Below, one piece after another: positions 7,850 through 38,059 of a DNA stretch of 57,597 nucleotides. The notes under the pieces are model-generated. The model had not been told where the DNA came from, did no database searches, and was given only the letters and a program-made list of their open reading frames with translations. The stretch lies in NCBI GenBank assembly GCA_963575745.1, contig CAUYUJ010000014.1:62001-119597 (forward strand), in the 5' to 3' direction. The stretch's first letter is position 1, and each line of letters opens with the position of its first letter. A program made the translations under genes and the position numbers. This stretch comes from Prorocentrum cordatum (Eukaryota).

Positions 7850-7924
<75 letters not shown>

Positions 7925-7988
7925 ATAGTAATTGTAGTACTAGCGCGTGTAGTAGTAGTAATAGTAGTAGTAGTAGTAGTAGTAGTAA

Positions 7989-8023
<35 letters not shown>

Positions 8024-8027
8024 ATGC

Positions 8028-8063
<36 letters not shown>

Positions 8064-8072
8064 AAATAGTAC

Positions 8073-8109
<37 letters not shown>

Positions 8110-8110
8110 C

Positions 8111-8207
<97 letters not shown>

Positions 8208-8214
8208 AGTAGTC

Positions 8215-8265
<51 letters not shown>

Positions 8266-8606
8266 TATGTAGGTGTAGTCGTAGCAGTCGTAGTTGCAGT
8301 AATAGTAGTAGTAGTAGTAGTAGTAGTACTAATCGTAGAAGTACGACTAGTATTACTTTTAGTACTACTACTACTACTACTACTACTACTTCCCTGCTAC
8401 TACTACCACTGCGACGGCTATTACTACAACAACAGCAAACCATCAACCAGTACTAGCATTCGCAGCCGTATTCGTATTCGTAGTAGTCGTAGCAGCAGTA
8501 GTAGTAGCCGTTGTAGTTGAAGTAGCAGTAGCAGTTGTAGGAGTGAGTATAGTAGTAGTCGTAGGAGAGGGAGTAGTAGTAGGAGAAATAGTAGTGGTAG
8601 CCGTAC

Positions 8607-8653
<47 letters not shown>

Positions 8654-8666
8654 ATAGTAGTAGTAA

Positions 8667-8700
<34 letters not shown>

Positions 8701-8759
8701 CATAGTGGTCGTAGTAGTAGTAGTAGTAGTAGTAGTCGTAGTAGTAGTAGTAGTAGTAA

Positions 8760-8808
<49 letters not shown>

Positions 8809-9027
8809 AGTAGTCGTAGTAGTCGTGATTTAGTAGTAGTAGTCGTAGTAGTAGTAGTAGTAGTAGTAGTAGTCGTCGTTGTAGTCGTAGTCCTAGTAGT
8901 CGTAGTAGTAGTCGTGGTAGTAGCAGTAGTAGTAGTAGTAGCAGTAGTAGTAGTAGTAGTAGTAGTCGTATAGTTAGAGTAGTAGTTAAGTAGTAGTAGT
9001 AGTCGTCGTTATTATTAGTAGTTAGTC

Positions 9028-9059
<32 letters not shown>

Positions 9060-9116
9060 CGGAGTGGGTAGTGTAGTAGTAGTATGAGTAGTAGTTGTCG
9101 TTGTTGTTTTTAGTTT

Positions 9117-9149
<33 letters not shown>

Positions 9150-9552
9150 GAGTGTAGTGTAGTTAAGTAGTAGTAGTTAATAGTAGTAGTAGTAGTAGTA
9201 GAATATAAAGTCGTAGTAGTAGGAGGTAGTCGTAGTAGTGGTAGTAGTAGAAAAAAAAAACACAAAAATAAAACTAGTGAGTAGTAAGTAGGAGTAGTCC
9301 TTGTAGTGTAGTAGTAGAAGTAGTAGTAGTAGTGTAGTAGTAGTAGTGTAGTAGCAATAATAGTAGTAGTACATAAGTGTAGTAGTAGTTAGTAGAGTAG
9401 TCGTTCGTAGTCGGTAGTAGTAGTGTAGTAGTAGTAGTAGGTAGTAGAGTAGTAGTCGTAGTAGCGTAGTAGTGTAGCAGTTAGTAGTAGTAACGTAAGT
9501 AGTATTCGTAGTAGTAGTAGTAGTAGTGCTAGTAGTAGTAGTTGTAGTAGTC

Positions 9553-9606
<54 letters not shown>

Positions 9607-9648
9607 CTAGTAGTAGTAGTAGTATTAGTCGTAGTAGTAGGAGTAGTC

Positions 9649-9691
<43 letters not shown>
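7201..9691. repeat. (CTA)n/(TAG)n microsatellite field with strand switches
   Basis: CTA to about 7830, TAG to about 8340, CTA to about 8440, then TAG to 9691. Confidence 0.95.
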
Positions 9692-9694
<3 letters not shown>

Positions 9695-10044
9695 GTAACG
9701 CCGTGCCCGTCCGGGCCGTGTAGTAGTGAACCGCTGCTCTGAAGATGTGTCGTTGTCTTTGTGTTTCTTTGGCGCTGAAGTTTATGTTTTAGAGGTTTAT
9801 GTGGCCGATGTTGGATCCGAGAACGTAAATTTACCTAAGAGTTCGACATTCGGTTTTCGGTTTTAAATTGCCTCCCGTCCATACAATCGAGCATGATGGA
9901 AGCGAACGCCGTCTCCGTCCGGGCCCGCCGTGCTCGATTCCGGAGATATTGCGTTGCTTTGCATTGGGTTGCTTTGCATTAGTTTGCATTGCTTGCATTC
10001 GGGTTGCTCAATAGATGTCTGCTGAGGTTGCATTGGGAGCTTAC

Positions 10045-10425
10045 ATCATGATGATGATGTTGAAGAAGGTGGTGATAATGATGATGATGATGACGATGAT
10101 GACGATGGTGATGGTGGTGATGGTGGCGACTAGTATGATGACCATGATGCGGATGATGACGATGACGATGATGACGATGATGCTGATGATGCTGATGTAT
10201 GACGATGACGATGATGTTGATTTATTTCGGTGATGATGACGATGACGAAGATGGTGGCGATGATGATGATTATGATGGTGATGGTGATGCTGGTGATGAT
10301 TGTGATGATGCTGGTGATGATCGCGATTCATGACGATGATGGTGGTGATGATGATGACGATGATGAAGATGATGTTGATGATGATCATTATGGTGATGTT
10401 TATGATGATTCTGATAATGACTATG
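10045..10425. repeat. Degenerate (GAT)n microsatellite
   Basis: Directly visible. Confidence 0.9.
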
Positions 10426-11872: not shown

Positions 11873-12620
<748 letters not shown>

Positions 12621-13129
12621 AGACGTAGTAATTCTACGACGACAATGTTTACCACTGCTCTTATTTGCTGTTGTTGTTTGCTCTCGTTATTTTTACGTGT
12701 GTTGTCGTTCGTCTGGTAACTCTTGTGCTGCTGCAGCTGCTGCTTCTGCTGCTACTCCTGCGGCTATGTGTTCCACCCTCTCTCGCTCCTCCCTCCCTCC
12801 TTATTTCCCTCCGTCCACAAAGCGAACCTCCGCGGCCGGCTATGTGTTGGCTGCGGGACGGCCTGGAGGCGGTCACCCCGGTGGCGGAGCGGAGTGCCGC
12901 GGGCGAGGATCCCAGGACGGGATTGGCCTCGCGGACCCCGCTGGCGAAGGACAGGGGCCCTTCCCCCGGGGGAGGGAAAGTACGCCGACCTTGTGACAGA
13001 AGTTTTTCCCAACCATCCTGTGGTGTTGGGTCCTCGTTTTGACGAGGCATCGTTCCGCGTCTCCTTCCTCCCGCTGCCCCCCCTCCTGCTCCCCATCATC
13101 AGCATCATCGCCATTATCATCGCTCCTCA

Positions 13130-16992: not shown

Positions 16993-17165
16993 ATGTGGTG
17001 GCGACGGAAGACGCTGGAGGCGATCACCCTCGAGGCGGAGCGCGACGCCGCGAGCGAGGAGCCCAAGCTGGGCCTCACCGATCTGCTGTGCATCGGCGTC
17101 GGCTCCACCGTCGGCAGCGGCGTCTTCGTGCTGACCGGGGACGTCCTGCCCACGGCGGGCCCATC
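16993..17165 (+). CDS. APC-family cationic amino acid transporter (CAT/SLC7-like), exon 1 (start codon tentative)
   Basis: MWWRRKTLE...KLGLTDLLCIGVGSTVGSGVFVLTGDVLPTAGPS matches the CAT TM1 motif G-V-G-S-T-x-G-x-G-x-F-V-L-T-G...AGP; GC3-rich codons. Confidence 0.9.
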
Positions 17166-17951
17166 TCGAAGAGCGGCCAAAACCGGCAGTTGAGGGAGGA
17201 GGAGGAGGAAGAGGAGGAGGAGGAGGAGGAGGAGGAGGAGGAGGAGGAGGAGGAGGAGGAGGAGGAGGAGAGGAGGAGGAGGAGGAGAAGGAGGAGGAGG
17301 AGGAGGAGGAGGGCGAGTTGAGGGAACGGTGAAAATGGCCTTCGGGAGAGCCGCCTCGTCGCCACGACGCCACGACGCAGCTCGGAGAAAGGGTGTGCGC
17401 CTGGGCCCGGGAAGGGGTCCAGGGGCCGATGCTGAGCTGCTGCCGGGGGCGGCAGAGAGGGGGGTGATGATTAGGGGGGGAGGAGGAGGAGGAGGAGGAG
17501 GAGGAGGAGGAGGAGGAGGAGGAGGAGGAGGAGGAGGAGGAGGAGGAGGAGGAGGAGGAGGAGGAGGAGGAGGAGGAGGAGGAGGACGAGGAGGACGAGG
17601 AGGAGGAGGGCAAATTGGGTATGCTGGGACTGGCGCGCGCTCGCACCTGGTGTGAACGCAAGTTTCTCGCGCGCGGCCCCGCTTCCCCCGACTGGTCGGG
17701 GAAGAAACATGTGCCGCGCACGGGCGGGAGTCGGGAGCGGCCAAGAGGGGGGTAATGACTAGGGGGTGTGGATATCTTGACGGGGGCCATGCGATCTCCC
17801 CAGATTTCGTGGCGCCTCTTCTCATTTCATTACGTCCCTGGCCTCCCCGCTTCCCTGGGTCGCGCACATGCCGCCAGCCATGATATGCGCCCCCCCCTCT
17901 TGGACGCCACCCCCCCCTGGGCCGACCCGATGCTACTGTCTCAACTCGCCC

Positions 17952-18197
17952 TGCTTCGACATGCCGTTGAACTCGAAGAAGACAAAAAGCCATAGACAGA
18001 AACTTTTGGCGCTCCGCGCGGATTCTTTGGATCTGCGCTGGACCCGCTCCGGCGGCGCCTCCAGCGCCGCCCCTGGCGCGCTCCGCGCGCCAGGGAGGTA
18101 GCTCCAGCGCGGATCCAAGAAATCCGCGCGGAGCGCCAACAGTTTATGCTGACGCCGTTTTTGTCTTCTTCTATGCTCCGACATATCGTTGAGCTCG
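17952..18197. repeat. Palindromic MITE-like repeat; related copies at about 24550-24695 and 29222-29350
   Basis: Nested inverted repeats GAAGAAGACAAAAA/TTTTTGTCTTCTTC and TGGCGCTCCGCGCGGATT/AATCCGCGCGGAGCGCCA. Confidence 0.75.
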
Positions 18198-18352
18198 CCA
18201 CCCACCAAACCACCCCAACCCAACCCGAAGGCCTCAGTGTGCCCTCCACTTCCAGTGTGGGGGGGGGTCGGGGAGCACCGAGAAAACACATGTGGAACCC
18301 GTATCCCCCCCAACCCGAAATTCGGGTCTTCTTGTTGGGTTGGGGTGGTCTG
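18198..18352. repeat. MITE-like repeat; second copy at about 24401-24545
   Basis: CCACCCACCAAACCACCCCAACCCAACCCGAAGGCCTC...GTTGGGTTGGGG is shared by both copies, with inverted ends. Confidence 0.75.
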
Positions 18353-18574
18353 GTATGTAGCTTAGTTGCCTCGATACGCCCGTATTGAAACGCAACACGT
18401 CCCGTGTTCAAGCCGTCCGTGTCAATACGTTGCGTGTTGGCTCCACGTACTGGACCACGCTCTGGCGAATGTATCGCGTCGGATCTACGTTTTCAGCCCA
18501 CCTGTTGAGCTCCGCATCAGTTCGCTACGTGTTGCGTGTTGCGTATCGGTGCAGCTAAGGTCGGTAGTCATGAA

Positions 18575-18860
18575 CCTCAGGAGGGGAAGACACACACACA
18601 CACAGACACAATGAATCGTCGACTCCCCAGGAAAATATGGGAAACTATGGGCAGTGGGGGGGAAGACAAAAGCCCAGAACCTATGGGAAACTATGGGGCA
18701 TCTTTTTACTTGTGTGTACTTATGAAATAAGCATACACGAATAATATTTGTGTGTCCCAGGGCCCCTTCAATCCTGGCCGGGCCGATCTTTGGGCCCAGG
18801 ATCGGCATGTGCATGCCTCCCTGGCCAAGCCCGGGCGGAGTGTGCACCGTGTGCACTTGT
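18575..18860. repeat. Interspersed repeat; second copy at about 21270-21520
   Basis: Shared GGAAAATATGGGAAA...TGTCCCAGGGCCC...TTCAATCCTGGCCGGGCCGATCTTTGGGCCCAGG...AAGCCCGGGCGGAGTGTGCAC. Confidence 0.85.
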
Positions 18861-19213
18861 GTGCCCCCAGGGCCCCTTCCGAGCCGTGGCGCAACCGTTC
18901 GGAGGCCCGCGTGGGCTCCGTGGGGGGGCGGCGCGCCGGGCCACGCCGGCACGCCCGGGGGGGGGGGGGGCGCGCCGGCGGGCGGCGTCTGGGCGTGTGC
19001 AGCGCGCCGGCCTCCGAGGAGAGTCGCATGTAGGGGGCCACAGGCGAACCCTGCCCTACCCACATGGGGGAGGGCCCAGGTCTGTTCGGACTCGTTCGTG
19101 CCCAGTTCGACTCCAGCTCGACTCCAGCTCGGCGCAAGCTCGGCTGCATCCGGCGGGCGTTCGACGCAGCCGCGACGCACGAGTGGAGCAAGCGGCTCCA
19201 GGAAGGCCACCAG

Positions 19214-19367
19214 TCGGGGGCCACATGCGAACCCTACCCCTGCCCCCCACGATTTCTGAGGGGGAGGGTGGGGTTCACTTCGCTCGGGAGCTCCGGGTCG
19301 AAGTGAGCCCCGCCCTCCCCCTCAGAACTCGTGGGGGGTAGGGGTAGGGCTCGCATGTGGCCCCCTA
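19214..19367. mobile_element. About 153-bp palindromic MITE, same family as intron 2
   Basis: Near-identical to 20310-20462. Confidence 0.9.
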
Positions 19368-19417
19368 TTCGCAGGGGCCTCCGACGGGTTACCGGTCGGG
19401 TTCGAGTCGTGGGTTTT

Positions 19418-19580
19418 TAAGACGGGCCTGTCCCCATACAGAGGGAATCTTCAAGCATAGTCAAGACACATAGTCTGGGGACGATTCTTGGACCATTTTT
19501 AGGCATTTTGGGGGGTGCATTTTGGTATTGTTGTTTTCTTTCGTCCCAAATCCGCCTGTTAGGGGGACAGGCCCGACCTA
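19418..19580. mobile_element. MITE with TAAGTCGGGCCTGTCCCYCTACAGG-type TIRs; other copies or ends at 20908, 27078-27269, 27465, 29781-29938, 47206, 47326 and 48290-48314
   Basis: About 25-bp inverted termini around an AT-rich core, repeated through the window. Confidence 0.85.
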
Positions 19581-20149
19581 GTCGTAGGTCGGCCCAACAG
19601 AACAAGGGGTAGATACTCGTGTGTCCTGTCTGTAGCGCCTCGTGTCGCTCTCATGCCTGGAGCATGGGCTGCCCTCTGAAGAGTCTTGTGCCCTCTCGGG
19701 TTCCCTCTGCCGTCGGTGTCCCGACTGCGAATGCGCTCGGGAACTTTGGGATCGCGTGTGGCTCCGCGGGTTCTGTGCCACCACGCCTCGGCGCGACACG
19801 CCATGCATTTCGCGGTTTCCTGTCGTCAACGCCCCCAGCTTTTCCCGCTTTACCCCCCCCCCCGCGAGGCGGAGCGACGCGCTGTCCGCTCGCAAGGCAT
19901 GCCGTGTCGCCGGGGGGCCGCGTCCGCGACACGCTCTGCCGAAGTTCCCGACCGTCTGTCCTGGCCTGGCCGCCCCGCCGGCCCTGGCCTCCCGCCTGGG
20001 CGTTCGTCGTCGTCTGCCTGCTTCTCCCCTCTTCGCCCCCTTCCGCCGGACCGCGCTGCCTGCCCGGAACCACGAGGCGGGCTGCTGTCCCCAGCCACAT
20101 TGGCCTGTAGGTTCCTACCTGGCCGCCTGTTTTGTGCTCTTCTGCCGTC

Positions 20150-20309
20150 CGCCGCGCTGAGCTGGCTCGGCGCGGGCGCGGTGTGCCTCCTGTCGGCCCT
20201 CTCGTACGTCGAGCTGTCCGGGCGGGTGCCCACCTCGGGGGCGTGCTACGCCTACTCGCTCCACGCTCTCGGCGAGCTCGGCGCCGTCATCGGCGCCGCC
20301 TGCCTCACC
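20150..20309 (+). CDS. CAT-like transporter exon 2
   Basis: AALSWLGAGAVCLLSALSYVELSGRVPTSGACYAYSLHALGELGAVIGAACLT matches the CAT motif SALxYxExxxRVPxxGxxYxY. Confidence 0.93.
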
Positions 20310-20467
20310 TAGGGGGCCACATGCGAACCCTACCCCTACCCCCCACGATTTCTGAGGGGGAGGGTGGGGTTCACTTCGCTCGGGAGCTCCCGAACGAAGT
20401 GAACCCCACCCTCCTCTCAGAAATCGTGGGGGGTAGGGGTAGGGCTCGCATGTGGCCCCCTATCACC
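20310..20467. mobile_element. Intron 2: 153-bp palindromic MITE plus one copy of the 5-bp TSD, non-canonical ends
   Basis: TCACC (20305-09), TAGGGGGCCACATGCGA...TCGCATGTGGCCCCCTA (20310-20462), TCACC (20463-67). Begins with an in-frame TAG. Confidence 0.92.
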
Positions 20468-20540
20468 CTGGAGTACGGCGTCTCCGGCGCGGGGGTGGCC
20501 AGGAGCTGGTCGAGCCTGGTGGCGGAGCTCACGGGGGGAG
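20468..20540 (+). CDS. CAT-like transporter exon 3
   Basis: LEYGVSGAGVARSWSSLVAELTGG matches the CAT motif LEY...VARSWS. Confidence 0.92.
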
Positions 20541-21582
20541 GACCCTGGGGGCGTCGGCTGCCGGCGGCAACGGCAGGGGGGCTGGCCCAGGGGGGTTGGG
20601 GGGAGCAGGGGTCCCCAGCCGCCCACTCCTCGCCAGCGTCAGGTCTTCGGCCCTCCCCTCCCGCCCGGGAGCGCTCGGGCTCGCGGTCGGGGGGGGGCCA
20701 GCTCTGATCCATCGGCCATGCAGCTTTTCGCGGGCTCCGGGTCCCGGTCTCCCCCTCGCCGAGCTCGGCCGGGCCGATCCTGGGCCCCGGGTCGGGGCAA
20801 GCTCTGCACGCCTACGGTCGGGGCGCTGACGTGAGGGCCACTTTGAGCTCAGGAGGGGCTCGGTCTCTCTGGCCGTTCCTTGAGATCTGGGTCCCGGGAC
20901 CTGGTCTTAAGTCGGGCGTGTCCCCCTACAGGGTGGATTTTCGACGAAAAATACAGAATATGCAACACATATTCCAAAAATGGTAGAGCAGATTCCAAAC
21001 ATGGTAGAACATATTCCCGAATCGTCAAAATTGCATAACATATTCCAAAAATGGTAGAATAGATTCCACATTCCACATGGTATAAACAACATATTCCGAA
21101 ACTGGTAGAACAGATGCCAACATCGTCAACGCATAGCCCCAAATGGTCCGAAGTACTCCTTAAGATCTGGGTCCCGGGGCCTGGTCGCGGCCAGGGCCCG
21201 CCGTGGTCAGAGGCGCCCCTTCGCTCCTCGGATTCGGCAGTCCTCGTGGCAGCCCGACGACTGCATCCACTCAGGAGGGGAGAAACCACACACAGGCACA
21301 AGCAGTCGTCGATTCCCTAGGAAAATATGGGAAAAGATGTGAAGTGGGGGAGATTACAAAAACCCAGAACATATGGGAAACTATGGGGAATCCTGTTGTT
21401 TGTGTGTATTTTTTTTGTCTGTCCCAGGGCCCCTTCAATCCTGGCCGGGCCGATCTTTGGGCCCAGGCTCGGCACGTGCACGCCTCCCCGGCCAAGCCCG
21501 GGCGGAGTGTGCACGTGTGCTGGGCCCAGGATGGGCCAGGCCAGGAGCGGCGAGGCGGGTGCGGGTTGACGCCCCCCGAGAG
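20541..21582 (+). mobile_element. Intron 3 (GA-AG), introner-like
   Basis: Direct repeat GAGGA (20538-42 and 21580-84); residual inverted repeat GGGGGCGTC/GACGCCCCC; in-frame join. Confidence 0.75.
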
Positions 21583-21781
21583 GAGACTGGATGTTCGTGT
21601 GGTACACCGACGCCCGCGGGGAGGGCGACCTCTACTTCGACTGGCCGGCCGGCGCGATCATGGCTCTGGCCGTCGCCGTCGCTAGCTCCGGGCTCTCGGT
21701 CGGCAGGGTCGTGGTGAACGCGTTCACCGCCGCCAAGCTCGCCCTGGTCCTGTTCTTCATCGTGGGTGGACTGTCTGCTTG
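21583..21781 (+). CDS. CAT-like transporter exon 4
   Basis: DWMFVWYTD...FDWPAGAIMALAVAVASSGLSVGRVVVNAFTAAKLALVLFFIVGGLSAW, two hydrophobic helices in the expected position. Confidence 0.9.
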
Positions 21782-22093
21782 GAGCTCAGAGGAGAACAGG
21801 TACCGATACGGCGGGGGCGTTCGTTAAGGAGTGTGCTCGGCAGTGATGTCCACGGCCGGTCCACGATCTGCAGTTCCACCAGCTTCCAGACCCCGGATTT
21901 CTTATCCAACGGTTCCCTCTCCAACGGCAGGGCCAATGCCCTCGCCGTGCATCTGCCCGTCCCCCGCTTTCGTTTTTTTGGGGGGGCCTTGGAGGCTTGC
22001 CGCCACGGCTGGATGCGCCTCGACGTCCTGGCCAGAGGGCGCTCAGGGAGATGCCCAGGAAGCCGCGGGATCGGTACCTCGTGGCTCCGCCAG
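21782..22093 (+). mobile_element. Intron 4 (GA-AG), introner-like
   Basis: Direct repeat GGAGC (21781-85 and 22093-97); inverted repeat AGGTACCGAT/ATCGGTACCT near the ends. Confidence 0.8.
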
Positions 22094-22178
22094 GAGCGCG
22101 GACGCGTTCGCCTTCACGCGGCCGTTCTTCCCGCACGGCTTGGGCGGCACGGTCCGCGGGGCGTCCAAGCTCTTCTTC
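22094..22178 (+). CDS. CAT-like transporter exon 5
   Basis: SADAFAFTRPFFPHGLGGTVRGASKLFF matches the CAT motif FxPxGxxGxxxGAxxxFF. Confidence 0.92.
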
Positions 22179-22751
22179 TCGGCGGCGAGCGAGGGGGTGA
22201 TCACCAGCCTCGAACGTATCCCTATCCCTAAGATTGACACGCCAAAAGGCGATGACAATCTTCGGGATGCGCTCTGAAAAACTAAGGGAATCCCTAAGAT
22301 TGGCATTGTGTTGAGGCGATGCCCAGCTCAGGGATAGGGATCTGTTCCAGGCTGGTAGGGGGAGGCGAGAAGGAGCAGGCCTTCTCGGATGGCTCGGAAG
22401 AGCTCCGGCCTTCCGAGAAGTTTTCTCTGAGCCTCCCCCGAAGACACACACACACACAAAACACTCCTCAGAAGGCGCGAGGGCTTCTGAGAAGCCCCGC
22501 CGCCTTCTGAGAGGGCCCCCTCCTCCTCACTTCCCCCCCTCCCCCCCAGACCCCCGGCGTCATGTTTTTTTTCATAACGTCGACCCTGGAGGTCTCGACC
22601 CATTCCCCAGGACCAGTTTTTCATCATGGATCGTTATTTGATGGTTTTGAGGCCCAGTAAGGGCCCCAGAGGCCGAAAATAGCGAAAGATCGCCGCCTTG
22701 ATTTTTCAATGCTTTGGATACTTCTCCCCCCCTCGCTCGCCGCCGATCTTC
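22179..22751. mobile_element. Intron 5: TIR element plus 5-bp TSD, non-canonical ends
   Basis: TCTTC (22174-78), TCGGCGGCGAGCGAGGGGG...CCCCCTCGCTCGCCGCCGA (22179-22746, 19-bp perfect TIR), TCTTC (22747-51). In-frame stop at 22275-77. Confidence 0.92.
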
Positions 22752-22902
22752 GGCTTCATCGGCTTCGACGAGGTCTGCTGCCTGTCGGGCAGGGCCGCCA
22801 GGCCAGAGCGGGCCATGCCGCGGGCGCTGCTCGGCACGCTGCTGTGTGCGACGCTCATCTCGGCGGCGGCGCAGTTGGCGCTGGCCGCCATGGTGCCGGC
22901 AG
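22752..22902 (+). CDS. CAT-like transporter exon 6
   Basis: GFIGFDEVCCLSGRAARPERAMPRALLGTLLCATLISAAAQLALAAMVPA matches the TM6 F-x-G-F-D motif and TM7. Confidence 0.93.
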
Positions 22903-23818
22903 GCTCGGCGGCGAGCCCTGGGGGGGTGGGAGGCAGGGGGCGGGCCTGCTCAGGGGGCTCGGAAGGCCCCCGGCCTTCTGTCAAGTGACGAAGAACCACC
23001 CGCACCGGACAATTGGCGTTTACTAAACGGCCCTGGGCGTTTACTAAAAGCCTTGCCCTGTTCGATTCCTTCTTTGGGTGCGCTTACTAAACGGTCTCGC
23101 TTGTCGGGCTGGTTTGTTTTTGTTTGGGGCCATCTATTCTGGGGAGTTCTCTGAGCCTTCCCCGAAGGCACAGAAAGCGTCTCGGAAGGCTTGAGGTTCT
23201 GCGAGGGAGCAGCCCAGGCAGACCGCGCCATGCATGTTGCTTACGTCGGCCGCTGTGTGCTAGGTGCTGCCCCCTGCGCACGCGCTTCCTCTTATTCTCT
23301 TTCTTTTTCCTCCTCCTCCTCCTCCTCCTGCTCCTCCTCCTCCTCCTCCTCCTCCTCCTCCTCCTCCTCGCGACTCTTTAAAGCATTATTTCCGTTGGTG
23401 CGACCCGATGTATATGCTCGCCCGTAGGCAATTAAGAGCTGACCTCCCCGCGCCCCCGTTTTTGGACCCCCTCCTGGCTCTGGGACTGATCCACCCCGCC
23501 CCCGAGACGTTCAAATTCACCGCTTTTTATTTTCATCTCTATCGGTTGGCACACCAAGAGAGTAAAGCCTGTTCTCTCAGGAGGCCGCCCAAAGCCTGGC
23601 GCGAGCCGCCCTCCAAGCCGTCGAACTGCCCCTCGGCCAACCGGGTCGTCTGTGGCGTCGTCGGCAGTAGAGTGGTTGAAGACGTTGCCCCCCAGACGCT
23701 CCAACCTCCTCCTCCTCCTCCTCCTCCTCCTCCTCCTCCTCCTCTTCCTCTGAGGAGCCCCGCCGCATTCTGAGAAGGCTCGCGCCCTCCCACGTCCCCC
23801 CAGGCTCGCCGCCGACAG
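22903..23818 (+). mobile_element. Intron 6 (GC-AG), same TIR family as intron 5
   Basis: CAGGC (22900-04), TCGGCGGCGAGCC...GGCTCGCCGCCGA (22905-23815), CAGGA (23816-20). Confidence 0.88.
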
Positions 23819-23895
23819 GAGGTGCGGCACAGTGGCCGGAGGCCTTCGGTGCGCGGGGCTGGCTCTGGGCGAAGGCGCTGGCGAGCCTGGGAGAG
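23819..23895 (+). CDS. CAT-like transporter exon 7
   Basis: GAAQWPEAFGARGWLWAKALASLGE matches the motif AFxxxGWxWA. Found by hand; this frame is not in the ORF track. Confidence 0.88.
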
Positions 23896-24242
23896 GTCGC
23901 TCTCTTAGCTGCCCCGATGCGCACGCGTTGGACCGCAACGCGTGCCGTACTCGAAGCGTCCGTGCCAACACGCTGTGTGTGGGCTCGGCACGTGTTGGCC
24001 CACGTGCTGGCCAACGTGCCGCGCCGGACCTGCATTCTCGGTCTGCGTGTTGAGCAGGGCTTGGCCTAAGCGGTGTTTTGGCGACTTCGTGGGCCGTTTG
24101 CGTTGCGACTTCGTTTTGCGGTGAAGGCGGATTGAAGACAAAACGAGGGAGAACGAAAACAAAACGGGAACGAAAAACACCGTTTAGGTTCAGCCCTGGT
24201 GTTGAGCGCCGTGCCATCAGGCTGCGTGCCGGGGCAGCTGAG
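23896..24242 (+). mobile_element. Intron 7 (GT-AG), introner-like
   Basis: Direct repeat GAGGTCG (23893-99 and 24240-46); inverted repeat AGCTGCCCCG/CGGGGCAGCT. Confidence 0.82.
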
Positions 24243-24392
24243 GTCGTCCTGCTGCCCCTGGTGGTGCTCCTGAGCTTCCTGCCGCAGCCGGAGCTGCTGG
24301 CCGCGATGGGGAAGGACGGCCTGGCCCCAGGCTTCTTCGCCGCGCGGGCCAGCGGAGGCGCCTACCTCGGCGGCTCCCTCGCCTCGGGTGCG
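24243..24392 (+). CDS. CAT-like transporter exon 8
   Basis: VVLLPLVVLLSFLPQPELLAAMGKDGLAPGFFAARASGGAYLGGSLASGA matches the motif QPxxxxAMxxDGLxP. Confidence 0.92.
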
Positions 24393-25071
24393 GTGATTCA
24401 CCACCCACCAAACCACCCCAACCCAACCCGAAGGCCTCAATTTGCCCTCCATTTCCAGTGGGGGGGTCCAGGAACATTGAAGGAAAACATATGGAGCCCA
24501 TACCCCCCCCAACCCGGAATTCGGGTCTTCGGGTTGGGTTGGGGCATGACAACTCGGAGGTCCGCGCGGATTTTTCGGATCGGCGCCGGACCCCCCTCCC
24601 ATGGCGCGCGGAGCGCGCCCGGGGCGGCGCCGGAGGCGCCGCCAGGGGGCCCCAGCGCGGATATCCGAGAAGTCCGCGCGGACCTCCGAGTTTTTATGTT
24701 TACAGCCAAGTCGCTGAAGTAAGGAGCAGTTTGGGTAAGAAAGGGGCTCGACATTCATCAGGTCCTTCTGTGGCTTTTTCCCTGGCCTTCCTCGTGCACA
24801 CGGGCGCTCGTGGGGCCACAGAGGGGCCTCGCTCCCTGTTTCGCGTCCCTTCTTGCAGCAGCCCGACCGCATGCCGCTGAGTTCCTTCCCCCAGGTTTGG
24901 GGGTGGGCAGAACCCCCAACAGTGACACGTCGATTAGTGAATTGTCCGTTTTCGGTTCTCGAGAGGGCGCCGTGGCCGTTATTTTCCAGGCTTGCGGCCG
25001 CCAGGTTTGGGCCTCAGGTTGTTTTCACTAAACCACGTTTTACTAAAGGGGGGTCTGTCCATCCCCGACAG
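24393..25071 (+). other. Intron 8 (GT-AG), filled with interspersed repeats
   Basis: Direct repeat GGTGAT (24392-97 and 25071-76); in-frame join; no clear TIR. Confidence 0.8.
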
Positions 25072-25143
25072 GTGATGGTGGGCGCCGCCGCCTGCGTGCC
25101 CTTCTCGGTGCTCTGGGACGTGATCTCCCTGGGCGTCCTGCTC
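25072..25143 (+). CDS. CAT-like transporter exon 9
   Basis: VMVGAAACVPFSVLWDVISLGVLL matches the motif LxDxxSxGxL. Confidence 0.9.
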
Positions 25144-25946
25144 TCGGAGGAGGGCCCCGGTCGAGATCGCGGCGGCTCTCCCGCTCCCCGGCCTTGACGT
25201 CGGGCCAGTCCCTCTCCAGGGGGAAGCCCAAAAATGGTTTTAGAAACAGTTCGGAGGCGATTTTTCTAAGATTTATTTCTTTTCGACAATTTGTAAATAT
25301 TTTGTCCCTCCATTGTTCCGTCCACAATCCGCCCGTACGAGGACATGCACGACCTAATCCTGGCCCAACTCCGCTCCACGTCGGTCCCAGGACCCCTCCC
25401 GCGGGGACCATCCTGACTTGTTTCGGCGGCGAGCGAGGGGGGGGGAAATGAGGCGGAGAAGGCCCTCTCAGCAGGCGGCGGGGCTCCTCGGACGCCCCCT
25501 CGCGCCTTCTGGGCAGTTCCACTGTCTGTCTTCGGGGGAGGCTTAGGACAACTTCCCCAGACGGCCGGGGGGACTTCGAGGCCTTCTTCCGAGAAGGCAC
25601 GCCCCGTCTCGCCGCTTCCCCCCCCTTGGGCGCGCCGCCTAGTTTATGGCTTGCCGAGGCGGATGCGGCCGTGGCGACGAGGGGGAGGAGGAGGAGGAGG
25701 AGGAGGAGGAGGAGGAGGAGGAGGAGGAGGAGGAGAGAGGAGGAGGAGAGAGGAGGAGGAGGAGAGGAGAGGGAGGAGGGAGGGGGAGGGGGAGGGAGGA
25801 GGAGGAGGAGGAGAGGGAGGAGGAGGAGGAGGAGGAGGAGAAGGAGGAGGAGGAGGAGGAGGGAGGAGAGGGAGGCGCCGAAAAGGGCGGACGGCGCCGG
25901 GGCGGCGGGGGCGCCGGGGCCTCGGCTGGCTCTCCCTCCGATGCTC
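25144..25946. mobile_element. Intron 9: TIR element plus 5-bp TSD; exact removal is non-canonical
   Basis: TGCTC (25139-43), TCGGAGG...CCTCCGA (25144-25941), TGCTC (25942-46). Confidence 0.8.
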
Positions 25947-25983
25947 AGCTTCAACCTCACGAACACCTGCCTGATCCTGGTTC
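25947..25983 (+). CDS. CAT-like transporter exon 10
   Basis: SFNLTNTCLILVR continues GVLL and leads into the conserved L-x-L-x-R-Y. Confidence 0.85.
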
Positions 25984-26667
25984 GCTCTGCGGGCAAGAGT
26001 GAAACACACACGGTTCATTTCTGTTTCCTCGGGGGTTCTTTGATTTTTTTCGCGGCCAGGATCCTTTTATTTCTAGTTGTTCTTTCCTAGCGAGCACAGT
26101 TAGAAATGAGCACGATCGGAAATGAACGACGTGTATATCAATATCCACTGCGTCTTGGACTTTCCGGGAAGGGGCGCTAAAAGGCCGAGGCGCCGGGGAT
26201 GTGGATAAGGAGCTGGCCTCCAGGGGCCATGCGGTGGGGGCGTTGGTGAAGGAATGCGCCCAGGATGCTGCAGACCCTGGAGGATTCCTTATCTGATGAG
26301 GGCGGTGGTGATATCCATGGCCAAGCCTCGATCGGAGTTCCACCGGCCTCCAGACCCCGGATTCCTTATCCAAGGGTTCCTTATCCCATGCCCCCTCCAC
26401 ACTGCGCCTCTGGTGTTTGTTTGGGAGAGGGAACCCGAACCTCCAAGACGCAGTTAACCCAGAGATCCGATGTCGTGTTTTTTTCAATGCGGGGTCCCTC
26501 GAAGTCTCGACCCATTCCCCAGGACCGGTTTTTCATCCTGAGTCGTTCTTTGACGGTCCCGGGGCCCGGCGAGGGCCGCCAGAGGCCGAATGGTTAGAAA
26601 AACCTCCGTCTTGACTTTTCCAGTACGTTGGACCTCGGGGGAGGATGAATCTGCGCCTTGCCCGCAC
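25984..26667. mobile_element. Intron 10: TIR element with a diverged TSD; best reading GC-AC
   Basis: TIR TGCGGGCAAG (25988-97) / CTTGCCCGCA (26657-66); flanks CGCTC and CGATA; the join restores R-Y. Confidence 0.72.
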
Positions 26668-26705
26668 GATACGGCCACGCGGGCGAGACGTCCCGGCCGT
26701 CCGTG
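26668..26705 (+). CDS. CAT-like transporter exon 11
   Basis: (R)YGHAGETSRPSV, bounded by TIR elements on both sides and in frame with its neighbours. Confidence 0.75.
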
Positions 26706-26907
26706 GTGCTCGGGCCGGACGAAAGGGGGAGATTGGGAAAGGGGGGGTTACGAAATCTGCTGCATGCAGCTGGTTTCGGCCTCACCGAGGGGCCCCTTCC
26801 TCGATGCGCAGTCGCCTCCGGCGCCGGGAGGCGCCGGGAAAACCAGCTACGTGAGCTGAATCTCAACCCCCCGCCTTTGCTATCCCCCCCCTCTCGCCCG
26901 ACCCGAG
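26706..26907 (+). mobile_element. Intron 11 (GT-AG), introner-like
   Basis: GGTGC (26705-09), TCGGGCCGGACGAAAGGGGG...CCCCCTCTCGCCCGACCCGA, GGTGC (26907-11). Confidence 0.85.
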
Positions 26908-27045
26908 GTGCGCCTCGTGGCCGCGCTGTGGTGCACGGCGGCCCCGGCGGCCCTGGCCCTGTGGCGCGGCCTCGCGGGGCCGCTGCTGCGGGCGGAGCCC
27001 TGCGCCCCCTGGGCGGCCGCGCTCGGCCTCGTGCTGCTGGGGGCG
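26908..27045 (+). CDS. CAT-like transporter exon 12
   Basis: VRLVAALWCTAAPAALALWRGLAGPLLRAEPCAPWAAALGLVLLGA; hydrophobic, GC3-rich and in frame. Confidence 0.8.
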
Positions 27046-28993
27046 GCGCTCGGGGGCGGCACTCGAGCCCTCTGCCCTTCAGTCGGGCCTGTACCCCTAC
27101 AGGGGGATTCTTCGACGAAGGATAAAAAATACCCCCAAAATGCACCAAAAATGCACGAGAAATGCCAAAACATATTCAAAAAACAGTCCCCAGACTATTT
27201 TTGGACTATTTTTTTGAAGTATTTTTCATTTGTCGACAATCCTCCTGTAGGGAGACAGGCCCGACTCAACTCTACCCTGAGACCCGACGCTCCAACACAA
27301 GTTTTGTGGAGCGGCTGGATTTGGGCAGTCTGCGGCCTCGGGGGGCCCTCGCCAGGCCTCGGGAGCGTCCACAGAGCGACTCGGGAGGAAACGCCGGTCC
27401 CGGGGAAGTGGTCTGGACCTTCCCCCTGGGGCGGCGCTCGGTGGCGGAATTCGAGCCCTAGACGTAAGTCGGGCCTGTCCCTCTACGGGAGGGATATTCA
27501 AGAATTGTCCAAGAATAGTCTCGGGGCGGCGCTCGGCGGCGAAGTTCGAACCCTGTGCAGTGGGGGGCCATGCAAAAAAGCACCCTCCGTGCCTCCAGGG
27601 TGCCCTGGGGTTCTTGTGTTTCGATGGTTTTGCTTTGGAAAGCGCGACGCCCCCGCACCAAAAATCAACGGACGTCCTGGGGTCTCAGGATTGGGCTTCT
27701 TGTGGATGGTTCCTTGTGGACGGGCCTCCGCTGGACCCTCGCCGATCCACGATTTGGGCAGCTCGGTGGGCCGCGGGGGCAGTGCTCGGAATTCGTCGAA
27801 CACGTGGCGAAGTCCGAACCCTACCTGGGGATAGTACAAGCCACCCCTACCCCCAGCCAGGACCCCCTGGAGTACCAGGCCGGCAGGGGGGGTCCTGGCT
27901 GGAGGTGGGCATTGTGTTATGGGGCAAATGCCGGTCCCGCACCCAGCCAGGACCCCGCTGGATCACCAGGCCGGCAGGGGGGGTCCTGGCTGGGGGTGGG
28001 GATTGTGTTACGGGGCAAAAGCCAGCCCCGCACCCAGCCAGGACCCCCTGGATCACCAGGCCGGCAGGGGGGGTCCTGGCTGGGGGTGGGGATTGTGTTA
28101 CGGGGCAAAAGCCAGCCCCGCACCCAGCCAGGACCCCGCTGGGTCACCAGGCTGGCAGTGGGGGTCCGGGCTGGAGGTGGGGATTGCGTTGAGGGGTAAA
28201 AGCCACCCCCGCACCCAGCCAGGACCCCGCTGGACCACCAGGCCGGCAGAAGGGGTCCTGGCTGGAGGTGGGGATTGTGTTGAGGGGTAAAAGCCGGCCC
28301 CGCACCCAGCCATGACCTCCTGGATCACCAGGCCGGCAGGGGGGGTCCTGGCTGGAGGTGGGGGTTATGTTGAGACCCAGCCAGCCAGAACCCCCTGGAT
28401 CACCAGGCTGGAAGCGGGGCTCATGTCTTGAGGTGGAGGTGGGGATATTGTATTGAGGGGCAAACGCCAGCCCCGCTTTCAGCCAGGACCCCCTGGATCA
28501 CCACGCCGGCAGCGGGGGTCCTGGCTGGACAGGCTGGAGGTGGGGATTGCGTTGAGGGGCAAAAGCCAGCCCCGCACCCGGCCAGGACCCCCTGGATCAC
28601 CAGGCCGGCAGTGGGGGTCCTGGCTGGAGGTGGGGATTGCGTTGAGGGGTAAATGCCGACCCCGCAGCTAGCCAGGACCCCCTGGATCACCAGGCCGGCA
28701 GGGGGGGTCCTGGCTGGAGGTGGGGATTGCGTTGAGGGGTAAACGCCGGCCCCGCACCCAGCCAGGACCCCCTGGATCGCCAGGCCGGCAGTGGGGGTCC
28801 CCTCTGGGGGTGGGGGTGGGTTGTGCTGTCCTCCATCGATGGCTGGGTTGTCCTCGGGGTGGGGCTGGGTTGTGCTGGGGGTGGGGGTGTGGCTGGGGCT
28901 GGGGGTGGGTTGTGCTGTCCTCCTGCACCTGCCCCCCATCGATTCGGGAGAACCGATGGCCGTTTGGGACAGGGCTCGGGTGTCGCCGCTCAG
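27046..28993 (+). mobile_element. Intron 12 (GC-AG), introner-like with nested MITE and satellite
   Basis: Direct repeat GGCGCT (27045-50 and 28993-98); imperfect TIR GGCGGCACTCGAGCCCT / AGGGCTCGGGTGTCGCC. Confidence 0.78.
27840..28800. repeat. About 90-bp satellite with an internal hairpin, about 10 copies
   Basis: Each unit contains CCAGCCAGGACCCC and its reverse complement GGGGTCCTGGCTGG. Confidence 0.92.
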
Positions 28994-29055
28994 GCGCTGT
29001 GCGTCCTGGCGGCCCTCGGCGCGCGGGGCGTGGAGGCGGAGGAGGCCCCGCGCGG
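28994..29055 (+). CDS. CAT-like transporter exon 13 (3' end uncertain)
   Basis: ALCVLAALGARGVEAEEAPR continues the helix of exon 12 in frame; donor position not resolved. Confidence 0.65.
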
Positions 29056-37944: not shown

Positions 37945-38059
37945 GAGGCACCGGCGCGCGGACGACGTGGGCGGCGGCGGCGCTGGCTTCCGTGCCCCTG
38001 GAGTCCCGTACGTGCCTGGCGCCGCCATGGTGCTGAATTTCATGCTGATGGCGACCATC
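37945..38059 (+). CDS. CAT-like transporter exon 14 (boundaries approximate; final exon not found)
   Basis: ADDVGGGGAGFRAPGVPYVPGAAMVLNFMLMATI matches the CAT C-terminal motif FxxPxVPxxPxxxxxxNxxLM. Confidence 0.85.

What the first reader, a model, noticed from the sequence alone, without database searches (positions are those of the whole stretch)
17161..20149. Old non-canonical introns argue against simple pseudogenisation
Seen: intron 1 has decayed TIRs, several nested repeat insertions and a TSD whose copies differ only at a Pro wobble position. Intron 10 also has diverged TSD copies. The exons in contrast have no stop or frameshift and keep their GC3 bias. Inference: selection on the protein continued long after these insertions, so they are being removed.
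Basis: partly seen in the sequence, partly recalled or inferred. Interest (0 to 1): 0.7.

Follow-up and report, generated by a model that had tools for sequence, protein, structure and literature searches.

The report
Transposon-derived introns spliced from transporter gene
The 3-kb stretch is an old, much-overgrown transposon insertion that serves as intron 1 of a working amino-acid transporter gene, and RNA data show that such introns are cut out exactly even where the usual splice signals are missing.

Summary
Window 17161-20149 is intron 1 of a + strand amino-acid transporter gene (APC/CAT family). The genome is GC-rich and looks dinoflagellate-like, but the organism was not identified.

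It has a 5-nt duplication, CCATC/CCGTC, with one mismatch at a Pro third base. It has decayed terminal inverted repeats (24 of 33 columns). Inside are six nested MITE-like repeat families and two (GGA)n arrays.

Joined exons 1-11 give 449 codons with no stop and GC3 of 0.94. They keep 77 of 83 residues that are invariant among six homologs.

Transcript contigs in three runs, one on record as polyA RNA, match the exons with 0 mismatches. They join exons 2-9 across seven introns, each flanked by a perfect 4-7-nt repeat. Removal of intron 1 is seen only indirectly: contigs stop matching at 20148 and run on for 341-344 letters.

Five of nine introns allow a G[T/C/A]..AG cut. Introns 1, 2, 5 and 9 allow none.

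This is a new member of a known kind (Amoebophrya-type introner elements, dinoflagellate repeated intron boundaries).

The parts
16993..17163 (+). Exon 1 of the amino-acid transporter gene (ATG at 16993). The end may lie up to 2 nt further right.
   Evidence: tblastn and HMM hits to homologs; joined translation.
17161..17165 (+). Upstream copy of the 5-nt target-site duplication, CCATC. Its CCA is kept in the mRNA.
   Evidence: The RNA contig pieces start at 20148, not 20145.
17164..20147 (+). Intron 1, 2984 nt. No G[T/C/A]..AG cut is possible at any allowed position (options are TC..CG, CT..GT, TC..TC).
17168..17200 (+). Left arm of the decayed outer inverted repeat of intron 1.
   Evidence: 24 of 33 columns match; 0.34% of random pairs score as high.
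17195..17609 (+). Two (GGA)n arrays (17195-17312 and 17479-17609) inside a tandem duplication of about 290 nt (73% identity).
17975..18171 (.). Nested palindromic element, family A. Other copies at 24561-24698 (82%) and 29220-29373 (74%). Very abundant in the laid runs.
   Evidence: Depth 776-8635 in bin 17879-18147 across the three contig runs.
18195..18361 (.). Nested palindromic element, family B. Another copy at 24398-24544 (84%), which is the 5' end of intron 8.
18361..18560 (.). Nested element, family F, related to intron 7 of the same gene (113 of 153 columns).
18576..18854 (.). Nested repeat, family C. Another copy at 21270-21520 (80%), inside intron 3.
19031..19367 (.). Nested element, family D. 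Its palindromic part (19214-19367) is 94% identical to intron 2 and 89% identical to 49475-49608.
19418..19580 (.). Nested element, family E. Its terminal motif occurs 12 times in the window against 0.43 expected.
20113..20142 (+). Right arm of the decayed outer inverted repeat of intron 1.
20145..20149 (+). Downstream copy of the duplication, CCGTC. At least its CCG is removed with the intron.
20148..20304 (+). Exon 2.
   Evidence: RNA contig pieces with 0 other letters; homologs.
20305..20462 (+). Intron 2: one family D element (20310-20462) plus one TCACC copy. It has no sense-strand G[T/C/A]..AG option and folds into a 74-bp hairpin.
   Evidence: Joint 20304>20463 in X1 and X6. Fold -160.3 kcal/mol, z -17.4. 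Cut options.
20463..20537 (+). Exon 3.
20538..21579 (+). Intron 3. Repeat GAGGA; GA..AG|G is possible at cut +3.
   Evidence: Joint in X1, X6 and X14.
21580..21780 (+). Exon 4.
21781..22092 (+). Intron 4. Repeat GGAGC; GA..AG|G is possible at cut +1.
22093..22173 (+). Exon 5.
22174..22746 (+). Intron 5. Repeat TCTTC, exact terminal motif TCGGCGGCGAGC at both ends, no G[T/C/A]..AG option.
   Evidence: Joint in X1, X6 and X14.
22747..22899 (+). Exon 6.
22900..23815 (+). Intron 6. Same terminal motif as intron 5, repeat CAGG; GC..AG|G is possible at cut +3.
23816..23892 (+). Exon 7.
23893..24239 (+). Intron 7 (family F element). Repeat GAGGTCG; GT..AG is possible.
24240..24391 (+). Exon 8.
24392..25070 (+). 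Intron 8. Composite with no inverted repeat between its ends. Repeat GGTGAT; GT..AG is possible.
25071..25143 (+). Exon 9 (the last 5 nt, TGCTC, are the repeat).
   Evidence: X14 record 9 ends its match at 25143 with 91 letters beyond.
25144..25946 (+). Intron 9. Repeat TGCTC, decayed inverted repeat starting TCGGAGG, a nested (GAG)n array, no G[T/C/A]..AG option. Its removal is inferred, not seen as a joint.
25947..25999 (+). Exon 10 (3' end uncertain).
26000..26906 (+). Intron 10 (boundaries uncertain). No inverted repeat and no confirmed duplication.
26907..27061 (+). Exon 11 (GC3 1.00). A family E element follows at about 27078.
37961..38056 (+). Late exon of the transporter (the conserved stretch that precedes the last helix). 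Its link to exon 11 across about 10.9 kb is not resolved.

Best explanation
What it is. The region is intron 1 of an expressed, selectively maintained amino-acid transporter gene (APC/CAT family). The nuclear genome is GC-rich and looks dinoflagellate-like; the organism was not identified.

How it arose (inferred). The intron began as a non-autonomous DNA-transposon (MITE-like) insertion with terminal inverted repeats and a 5-bp target-site duplication, inside the codons for Pro-Ser. It then grew to 2984 nt through microsatellite expansion, a local duplication and at least six further element insertions. Its own termini decayed meanwhile.

How it works.
- The element plus one duplication copy is cut out of the RNA, so the ancestral reading frame is restored exactly. 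This is shown for introns 2-8 and strongly implied for intron 1.
- At least nine introns of the gene are of this type. Five of them (3, 4, 6, 7, 8) landed in, or carry, sequence that gives the dinoflagellate-style G[T/C/A]..AG|G boundary, so the spliceosome can remove them.
- Four of them (1, 2, 5, 9) have no such boundary at any allowed cut. I think these are most likely removed at the junction between element and duplication. The two repeat copies would be brought together by pairing of the intron ends, or by another recognition that does not depend on splice sites, as proposed for Amoebophrya introner elements. This step is inferred.
- The mismatch in intron 1 fixes the register. The mRNA keeps at least the first three bases of the upstream copy, so the cut lies 0-2 nt before the element's first base.
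For: Gene identity:
- Homologs carry PF13520 and PF13906. Exon ORFs hit PF13520.
- Eleven or twelve exons line up in order with the homologs.

Removal from RNA:
- Contigs with 0 other letters join exons 2-9: X1 records 2 and 6, X6 records 10 and 11, X14 records 8 and 9. X14 is polyA RNA-seq.
- There are 7 joints. Six are present in all three runs; the intron 2 joint is in X1 and X6 only.
- Unique intron bins (20569-20837, 21107-21375, 23259-23796) have depth 0-1.0. Exon contigs have depth 7-26.

Intron 1:
- The match starts at 20148 in X1 and X6, with 341 and 344 more letters upstream.
- A start at 20148 rather than 20145 means the mRNA carries A, not G, at the mismatch.

Transposon origin:
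- 8 of 8 junctions of introns 2-9 have perfect 4-7-nt repeats. The chance of 4 nt or more is 0.025 per random junction.
- Inverted repeats are significant for introns 1, 2, 4, 5, 6, 7 and 9, with at most 0.34% of random pairs scoring as high.
- Families are shared between introns: D with intron 2, F with intron 7, and TCGGCGGCGAGC at both ends of introns 5 and 6.

Cut options are listed.

Selection:
- 449 codons without a stop, GC3 0.94.
- 77 of 83 invariant columns kept.
- 8 of 8 relative-rate tests not significant, p above 0.24.
- pN 0.31 against pS 0.65 versus a relative.
- Under neutral change of 5% per site, only 18.5% of simulated copies stay free of stops, before counting indels.

A relative (L001) has no intron at any of these positions and uses GT-AG, so these introns are lineage-specific gains.
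Against: - The exon 1 to exon 2 joint and the intron 9 joint were not seen directly.
- The kinds of runs X1 and X6 are not on record. Only X14 is stated to be RNA. No DNA run of the same organism was laid, so I did not confirm independently that the introns are present in the DNA of the expressing cells.
- RNA pairing between the ends of intron 1 is weak: -34.5 kcal/mol, only the 6.8th percentile of random intron pairs. A hairpin-guided mechanism is therefore least convincing for the very intron in question.
- Synonymous sites are saturated against the only relative with DNA (dS about 1.5), so no lineage-specific dN/dS could be computed.
- The outer element of intron 1 has no other copy in the window, so its age cannot be calibrated.
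- The 3' end of the gene is unresolved.
Confidence: 0.8

Rival explanations
1. All nine introns, including 1, 2, 5 and 9, are removed by the ordinary spliceosome. In this organism it would tolerate almost any boundary dinucleotide, as reported for the tunicate Fritillaria borealis. The inverted and direct repeats would be mere scars of insertion with no role in removal.
For: - Five of nine introns already fit G[T/C/A]..AG|G.
- Intron 8 has no inverted repeat between its ends yet is removed.
- The ends of intron 1 pair only weakly.
- The 2024 review describes a spliceosome with relaxed tolerance in F. borealis (PMC11282704, passages).
Against: - The four odd introns share no dinucleotide pattern except TC..TC (introns 1, 5, 9) or TA..CC (intron 2) at the element boundary.
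- None of the four has a 3' AG at any allowed cut.
- No snRNA or branch-point data were available.
Confidence: 0.35
2. The window copy is a transposon-riddled pseudogene. The matching mRNA would come from another, uninterrupted copy of the gene elsewhere in the genome, for example a retrocopy.
For: - No whole genome is held, so other copies cannot be excluded.
- From general knowledge, dinoflagellate genomes carry many gene copies and retrocopies.
Against: - The contigs match the window's exons with 0 differences over 881, 656, 884, 487, 389 and 538 nt. An old paralog should differ at synonymous sites.
- The exons keep 449 open codons, GC3 0.94 and 77 of 83 invariant residues, despite insertions old enough for inverted repeats to decay to 24 of 33 columns.
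- A recent retrocopy of this locus would itself prove splicing.
Confidence: 0.05
3. The apparent removal is a cDNA artefact. Reverse transcriptase would jump between the direct repeats at the base of a stable hairpin, and the real mRNA would keep the element.
For: - Intron 2 is a 74-bp near-perfect hairpin flanked by identical 5-mers, and intron 5 has 19-nt perfect arms.
- From recalled literature that I did not read here, such structures are known to cause template switching.
Against: - Introns of 916-1042 nt, and intron 1 at 2984 nt, have no contig depth on their unique interiors. The RNA that was sequenced therefore lacks them.
- Intron 1 has weak end pairing and only 2 nt of unbroken identity at the joint.
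- The same joints occur in three runs of three different studies.
- Exons downstream of the old introns 1 and 9 remain under constraint. That requires removal in the cell. This argument does not cover the young introns 2 and 5.
Confidence: 0.05
4. The elements are cut out of the DNA in expressing cells, or the insertions are present only in some individuals or alleles. The RNA would then be colinear with an element-free DNA template.
For: - Excision that leaves one copy of a short direct repeat also describes the DNA-level removal of internal eliminated sequences in ciliates (general knowledge).
- The kinds of runs X1 and X6 are unknown.
Against: - Contigs of X1 and X6 behave like those of X14, the polyA RNA run: exon-only pieces of 0.4-0.9 kb with the same joints.
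- Five introns have ordinary G[T/C/A]..AG boundaries.
- Decayed and nested elements argue for long residence in the inherited genome, not for a fresh polymorphism.
Confidence: 0.05

Closest known systems
Introner elements among the non-canonical introns of Amoebophrya sp. A25 and A120 (Farhat et al. 2021, PMC7789003; I read sections 5, 11 and 12 and further passages)
   Same: - Introns validated by RNA whose boundaries are not GT-AG.
- Inverted repeats of 8-20 nt at the intron ends that can form a hairpin.
- Direct repeats of 3-5 nt across the exon-intron boundary, one copy of which is kept.
- Repeated families, no transposase inside, and canonical and non-canonical introns mixed within one gene.
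   Different: - The window is far more GC-rich: introns 57-66% against 44-46.5% in the A25 and A120 columns of that paper's Table 1.
- The introns here are longer, 158-2984 nt.
- The terminal motifs differ. Here they start TCGG.. or TAGGGGG.., against TTA.. or TAT.. in the paper.
- The repeats reach 7 nt here.
- The organism is probably a different one.
Identically repeated intron boundaries of dinoflagellates (Mendez et al. 2015, PMC5032977; abstract and passages read)
   Same: A 2-9 (to 11) bp sequence is repeated at both intron ends and appears once in the mRNA, so the exact cut is ambiguous.
   Different: - That repeat is described as always containing GG, and AGG at the 5' site.
- The repeats of introns 1, 2, 5 and 9 (TC, TCACC, TCTTC, TGCTC) contain none.
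- No link to inverted repeats or transposons was made there.
Spliceosomal introner-like elements of Symbiodinium and Polarella glacialis (Roy et al., bioRxiv 10.1101/2020.10.14.339549; passages read)
   Same: - DNA-transposon insertions with inverted repeats and 3-8-nt target duplications create introns.
- GA, GC or GT 5' sites and AG|G 3' sites are recruited from the duplication or the element end.
- Introns 3, 4, 6 and 7 fit this. Intron 6 (CAGG followed by the element's C) resembles their 5-nt class 12.
   Different: Introns 1, 2, 5 and 9 sit in targets that supply no GH..AG, yet they are removed. Under the purely spliceosomal model such insertions should disrupt the gene.
Nonconventional introns of euglenids (review PMC11282704; passages read)
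   Same: - Non-canonical borders, end pairing that brings the exons together, and duplication-like repeats.
- Lengths from dozens to thousands of nt, and a likely MITE origin.
   Different: The usual CAG at +4..+6 paired with CTG at -8..-6 is absent at every allowed cut of all nine introns. Circular excision was not tested.
Introner elements in introns of the high-G+C dinoflagellate Prorocentrum cordatum (Dougan et al. 2023, PMC10666404; passages read)
   Same: - A genome of 59.7% G+C with long introns enriched in elements.
- Those elements have 8-20-nt inverted repeats and 3-5-nt direct repeats within 30 bases of the intron ends.
- The window's composition and intron anatomy match this description.
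   Different: - In the passages I read, that annotation allowed only GT, GC and GA donors. Boundaries like those of introners 1, 2, 5 and 9 are not described there.
- I did not establish whether the window comes from that species.

Membership tests
Amoebophrya-type introner element / non-canonical intron | The intron is removed from RNA at boundaries that are not GT-AG. | tested here: met
   The joints of introns 2 and 5 are in the contigs, and no G[T/C/A]..AG cut is possible. Introns 1 and 9 are supported only indirectly.
Amoebophrya-type introner element / non-canonical intron | Inverted repeats of about 8-20 nt between the 5' and 3' ends of the intron. | tested here: met
   at most 0.34% of random pairs score as high as introns 1, 2, 4, 5, 6, 7 and 9. 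Intron 3 is marginal (6.2%). Introns 8 and 10 have none.
Amoebophrya-type introner element / non-canonical intron | A short direct repeat across the exon-intron boundary, with one copy kept in the mRNA. | tested here: met
   8 of 8 junctions of introns 2-9 have perfect 4-7-nt repeats. Intron 1 has a 5-nt repeat with 1 mismatch.
Amoebophrya-type introner element / non-canonical intron | Repeated families spread over the genome. | tested here: inconclusive
   Copies were found within the 57.6-kb window, and some families have high depth in the runs. No genome is held. The outer element of intron 1 has no other copy in the window.
Dinoflagellate identically repeated intron boundary (Mendez 2015) | The repeat contains GG or AGG, placed at the splice sites. 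| tested here: not met
   This holds for introns 3, 4, 6, 7 and 8 but not for introns 1, 2, 5 and 9.
Spliceosomal introner (Micromonas, Aureococcus, Symbiodinium, Polarella type) | The insertion supplies or recruits a GT, GC or GA 5' site and an AG 3' site. | tested here: not met
   Met by 5 of 9 introns (3, 4, 6, 7, 8). Not met by intron 1, the intron of the finding, nor by introns 2, 5 and 9.
Euglenid nonconventional intron | CAG at +4..+6 paired with CTG at -8..-6; excised as a circle. | tested here: not met
   The motif is absent at all allowed cuts of 9 of 9 introns. Circularity cannot be tested with these tools.
Transposon-disrupted pseudogene | Stops or frameshifts in the exons, loss of conserved residues, faster protein change, no correctly joined transcript. 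| tested here: not met
   - 449 open codons.
- 77 of 83 invariant columns kept.
- 8 of 8 relative-rate tests not significant.
- Joined transcripts present.
Self-splicing group I or II intron, or another known RNA family | A match to a curated covariance model. | tested here: not met
   0 matches at gathering score in the whole window.
APC/CAT amino-acid transporter | AA_permease_2 core with the CAT C-terminal domain. | tested here: inconclusive
   - Homologs carry PF13520, PF00324 and PF13906.
- Single exon ORFs hit PF13520 below the curated cut-off: 23.1 and 16.8 bits against 27.
- The joined protein was not sent to Pfam, and the C-terminal exons are unresolved.

The most novel reading that the evidence does not exclude
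Besides a G[T/C/A]..AG spliceosome, this GC-rich, dinoflagellate-like organism has a way of removing transposon-derived introns that ignores splice-site dinucleotides. It would cut at the junction between element and duplication.

That system would tolerate heavy decay. A 3-kb intron with eroded inverted repeats, a mismatched duplication and six nested elements is still removed exactly.

The gene offers two natural experiments:
- The same terminal-repeat family sits in a target that supplies splice sites (intron 6) and in one that does not (intron 5).
- The diverged duplication of intron 1 pins the ligation register to within 2 nt of the element end.

If so, non-canonical introner removal of the Amoebophrya kind is not confined to that parasite lineage.
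Probability: 0.4. Interest if true: 0.7.

Novelty: new member of a known kind. Interest (0 to 1): 0.5.

Why it matters
How non-canonical, transposon-derived introns are recognised and removed is an open question. In the passages I read, Farhat et al. 2021 and the 2024 review call the mechanism unknown for Amoebophrya and for euglenids.

This one gene holds canonical and non-canonical introners side by side, and young and old ones.
- The old intron 1 shows that removal does not need perfect inverted repeats, an identical duplication or a short intron.
- The pair of introns 5 and 6 shows that the same element family is removed with or without a splice-site consensus.
- The mismatch in intron 1 places the cut, which is normally hidden by the repeat.

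There is also a practical point. Gene finders restricted to GT, GC and GA donors would break or discard genes like this one.

Tried and rejected
- One search was wasted: the exon 2 query was in the wrong frame and found nothing. It was repeated in the right frame.
The smaller stretch 17610-25678 was laid instead. Exon 1 and exons 10-11 are therefore outside the RNA evidence.
- X21 (raw RNA reads under another species label): 1244 reads were laid and 93% run on unlike. They cover only repeats, and a single read shows one joint. It is not informative for this gene.
- No whole genome is held. No genome-wide family consensus or copy count was possible.
- The dinoflagellate spliced-leader motif (recalled from memory) has 0 matches in the window at up to 3 mismatches. 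This says nothing either way.
- The protein atlas search gave only the family, no useful taxon.
- Pfam on 54 large ORFs of the window hit only the transporter. No transposase or other gene was found.
- The search for the C-terminal exon(s) by tblastn, a homolog HMM and a GC3 scan found nothing beyond 38056.
- dN/dS against the relative L001: dS is saturated, so the ratio (at most about 0.26) is an upper-bound impression over both lineages, not a lineage-specific test.
- Target duplications of the nested elements were not clear.
- Earlier findings of this scan returned nothing.

Full report
**What is there.**
The window is GC-rich (about 60-65% over 13-38 kb) and full of microsatellites and palindromic short repeats. 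From 16993 a + strand gene for an amino-acid transporter of the APC/CAT family is split into many short exons.
- A search with exon 2 (55 aa) found 8 proteins at E of 0.001 or better among 315 candidates. They are up to 76% identical, and the full-length ones carry PF13520, PF00324 and PF13906.
- tblastn and a homolog HMM place exons 1-10, in order, along the homologs. tblastn also gives a weak hit (E 0.96) at exon 11. A late exon lies at 37961-38056.
- No whole genome is held for this window.

**Check of the observation: intron 1.**
The two copies differ only at 17163/20147, the third base of a Pro codon.
- Such a 5-mer repeat with at most 1 mismatch is found at 2.5% of 200,000 random junctions.
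- Just inside the copies lie inverted repeats, 17168-17200 against 20113-20142. They match in 24 of 33 columns, 3 of which are gaps. Only 0.34% of 5000 random 40-mer pairs score as high.
- The repeats are clearly more decayed than those of intron 2 (39 of 40), intron 5 (21 of 22) and intron 6 (28 of 31).
- Inside the intron are two (GGA)n arrays within a duplication of about 290 nt (73% identity) and six repeat units with other copies in the window:
  - A at 17975-18171, 82% and 74% identical to its other copies.
  - B at 18195-18361, 84% identical to the start of intron 8.
  - F at 18361-18560, matching intron 7 in 113 of 153 columns.
  - C at 18576-18854, 80% identical to a copy in intron 3.
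  - D at 19031-19367, 94% identical to intron 2.
  - E at 19418-19580, whose terminal motif occurs 12 times against 0.43 expected.

**Check of the observation: the exons.**
- Joined by coordinates in a script, exons 1-11 give 1347 nt, or 449 codons, without a stop.
- GC at codon positions 1/2/3 is 0.70/0.57/0.94. The introns have GC 0.57-0.66, and intron 1 has 14-16 stops in each frame.
- The frame is kept only if exactly one repeat copy stays at each joint.

**Check of the observation: intron 10.**
- In my numbering intron 10 is 26000-26906. Its ends have no inverted repeat: the score is 6, reached by 56% of random pairs.
- No in-frame junction near the place predicted by homology has a repeat of 4 nt or more. 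The only in-frame repeats are perfect ones, CCTCG at 26027/26913 and CTCG at 26028/26893.
- There is no RNA evidence for this junction. This part is not confirmed.

Beyond exon 11 the next recognisable exon lies about 10.9 kb away, and the C-terminal exon(s) were not found.

**Are the introns removed?**
Of the 24 runs listed I laid four on 17610-25678. Exon 1 had to be left out because the (GGA)n array blocks laying.
- In X14 (on record as polyA RNA-seq), X1 and X6 (kinds not on record), contigs of 389-884 nt match the exons with 0 other letters and skip the introns.
- The joints are 20304>20463 (in X1 and X6), and 20537>21580, 21780>22093, 22173>22747, 22899>23816, 23892>24240 and 24391>25071 (in all three runs).
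- Each joint has 4-7 letters that fit on either side.
- Bins made only of unique intron sequence have depth 0-1.0, while the exon contigs have depth 7-26.
- X21 (another species label) covered only repeats.

For intron 1 the evidence is indirect.
- X1 record 2 and X6 record 10 begin to match at 20148 and carry 341 and 344 further letters. That is enough for exon 1 (171 nt) plus a leader.
- Because the match starts at 20148 and not 20145, the mRNA has A, not G, at the mismatch. The upstream CCA is kept and the CCG copy leaves with the intron.
- X14 record 9 likewise stops matching at 25143, the end of the TGCTC repeat, with 91 letters beyond. This fits removal of intron 9.

**What kind of introns are these?**
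- All eight junctions of introns 2-9 have perfect 4-7-nt repeats. The chance of 4 nt or more is 0.025 per random junction.
- Seven of ten introns have significant inverted repeats.
- Intron 2 is a single family D element that folds into a 74-bp hairpin (-160.3 kcal/mol, z -17.4). Its two TCACC copies lie at the base of the stem.
- Introns 5 and 6 carry the exact same 12-nt terminal motif at both ends.
- Enumerating every cut allowed by the repeats:
  - Introns 3 and 4 can be GA..AG|G.
  - Intron 6 can be GC..AG|G.
  - Introns 7 and 8 can be GT..AG|G.
  - Introns 1, 2, 5 and 9 have no G[T/C/A]..AG option. At the element boundary they read TC..TC (1, 5, 9) or TA..CC (2).
- The euglenid CAG/CTG motif is absent from all nine.
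- No Rfam family matches anywhere in the window.
- No transposase or other Pfam domain was found in 54 large ORFs.

**Selection.**
- Of 83 alignment columns that are invariant among six homologs, the window protein keeps 77.
- Tajima relative-rate tests against two relatives with four outgroups give 26-41 unique changes on the window side and 26-41 on the other. None of the 8 tests is significant (p above 0.24).
- Against the only relative with DNA (metagenome locus L001, 58% identity over 349 codons), pN is 0.31 and pS is 0.65. That gives dN 0.39 and dS about 1.5, which is saturated. This is only a rough bound over both lineages.
- In a simulation of neutral change, 18.5% of copies stay free of stops at 5% divergence and 4.2% at 10%, before counting indels.
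- L001 has GT-AG introns at other positions and none at the window's intron sites. The window's introns are therefore gains in its own lineage.

**Why the age argument matters.**
For young, perfectly palindromic introns (2 and 5) two doubts cannot be removed by sequence alone.
- Reverse transcriptase might jump across the hairpin. This artefact is recalled from the literature, which I did not read here.
- The gene might have been broken only recently.

For intron 1 both doubts fail.
- Its ends pair weakly: -34.5 kcal/mol, the 6.8th percentile of random pairs.
- Only 2 nt are identical at the joint.
- It has been in place long enough to decay and to collect six further elements, yet everything downstream is still conserved.

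Its wobble-position detail carries little weight, though, because the second copy is intronic.

**Most likely mechanism.**
- Shown: exact removal from RNA of element plus one repeat copy for introns 2-8, and a transposon-like anatomy.
- Strongly implied: the same for introns 1 and 9.
- Inferred: the five introns with G[T/C/A]..AG are spliceosomal, as in the introner-like elements of Symbiodinium and Polarella (bioRxiv 10.1101/2020.10.14.339549, passages).
- Inferred: the four without such boundaries are removed at the element-duplication boundary by a recognition that does not depend on splice dinucleotides, as proposed for Amoebophrya introner elements (PMC7789003, sections 11 and 16).
- I cannot decide whether that is a very tolerant spliceosome or a separate activity.

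**Comparison with what is known.**
- The anatomy matches Amoebophrya introner elements: inverted repeats of 8-20 nt, direct repeats of 3-5 nt, no boundary consensus, mixed genes.
- The base composition, intron length and terminal motifs differ from strains A25 and A120 (PMC7789003, Table 1 and section 11).
- The repeated boundaries match the dinoflagellate pattern of Mendez et al. (PMC5032977), except that four repeats lack the GG/AGG said to be constant.
- The composition and the long, element-rich introns resemble the 59.7% G+C genome of Prorocentrum cordatum. In the passages I read, its annotation allowed only GT, GC and GA donors (PMC10666404).
- I did not identify the organism.
- Three literature searches turned up no report, in what I read, of introners without GH..AG boundaries being removed in a free-living dinoflagellate. 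Subscription papers and the supplements were not seen.

**Verdict.**
- This is a new member of a known kind, with some value as a natural experiment on how such introns are recognised.

Noticed in passing
window 22174-22746 and 22900-23815: Introns 5 and 6 end in the same exact 12-nt terminal motif. A fifth exact copy lies at 25423 inside intron 9. Intron 6 sits in a target that gives GC..AG and intron 5 in one that gives no splice consensus. Both are removed in the RNA contigs.
   Followed up: partly
window 22900-22904 and 23816-23820: If the duplication of intron 6 is read as 5 nt, like the others, its copies differ at the last base (CAGGC against CAGGA). The mRNA then carries the downstream A, which fits a GC..AG cut.
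   Followed up: partly
window 20305-20462: At cut +4, intron 2 reads CT..AC, which is GT..AG on the opposite strand. The element is a near-perfect palindrome. I do not know whether this matters for its removal.
   Followed up: no
window 17879-18147 and 24335-25141: Families A and B and their neighbours reach summed contig depths of hundreds to thousands in all four laid runs, including raw RNA reads filed under another species label. These element families are abundant in transcriptomes and shared beyond one species label.
   Followed up: no
window 27062-37960: The presumed intron 11 is about 10.9 kb. It holds a 90-nt tandem repeat of 10.8 copies (27838-28815), several triplet arrays, and a 75-codon + strand ORF with coding-like GC3 (35681-35905) that has no Pfam match. 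It may hide further exons or another gene.
   Followed up: partly
window 36966-37034 (+) and 2535-2711 (-): There are weak HMM hits to the transporter: E 0.015 to the exon 2 region and E 0.04 to the C-terminal region on the other strand. They may be decayed fragments of a paralog, or chance.
   Followed up: no
window 38100-41000 and 44900-45600; also 8000-10300 and 12200-12650: Kilobase-scale triplet satellites (CTA/TAC and others) with low GC and strong strand skew. A run of 100 N lies at 12028-12127.
   Followed up: no
L001 2346-5106: The nearest relative with DNA (a metagenome contig, GC 48.6%) encodes the same transporter with ordinary GT-AG introns at positions different from all of the window's introns.
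   Followed up: yes
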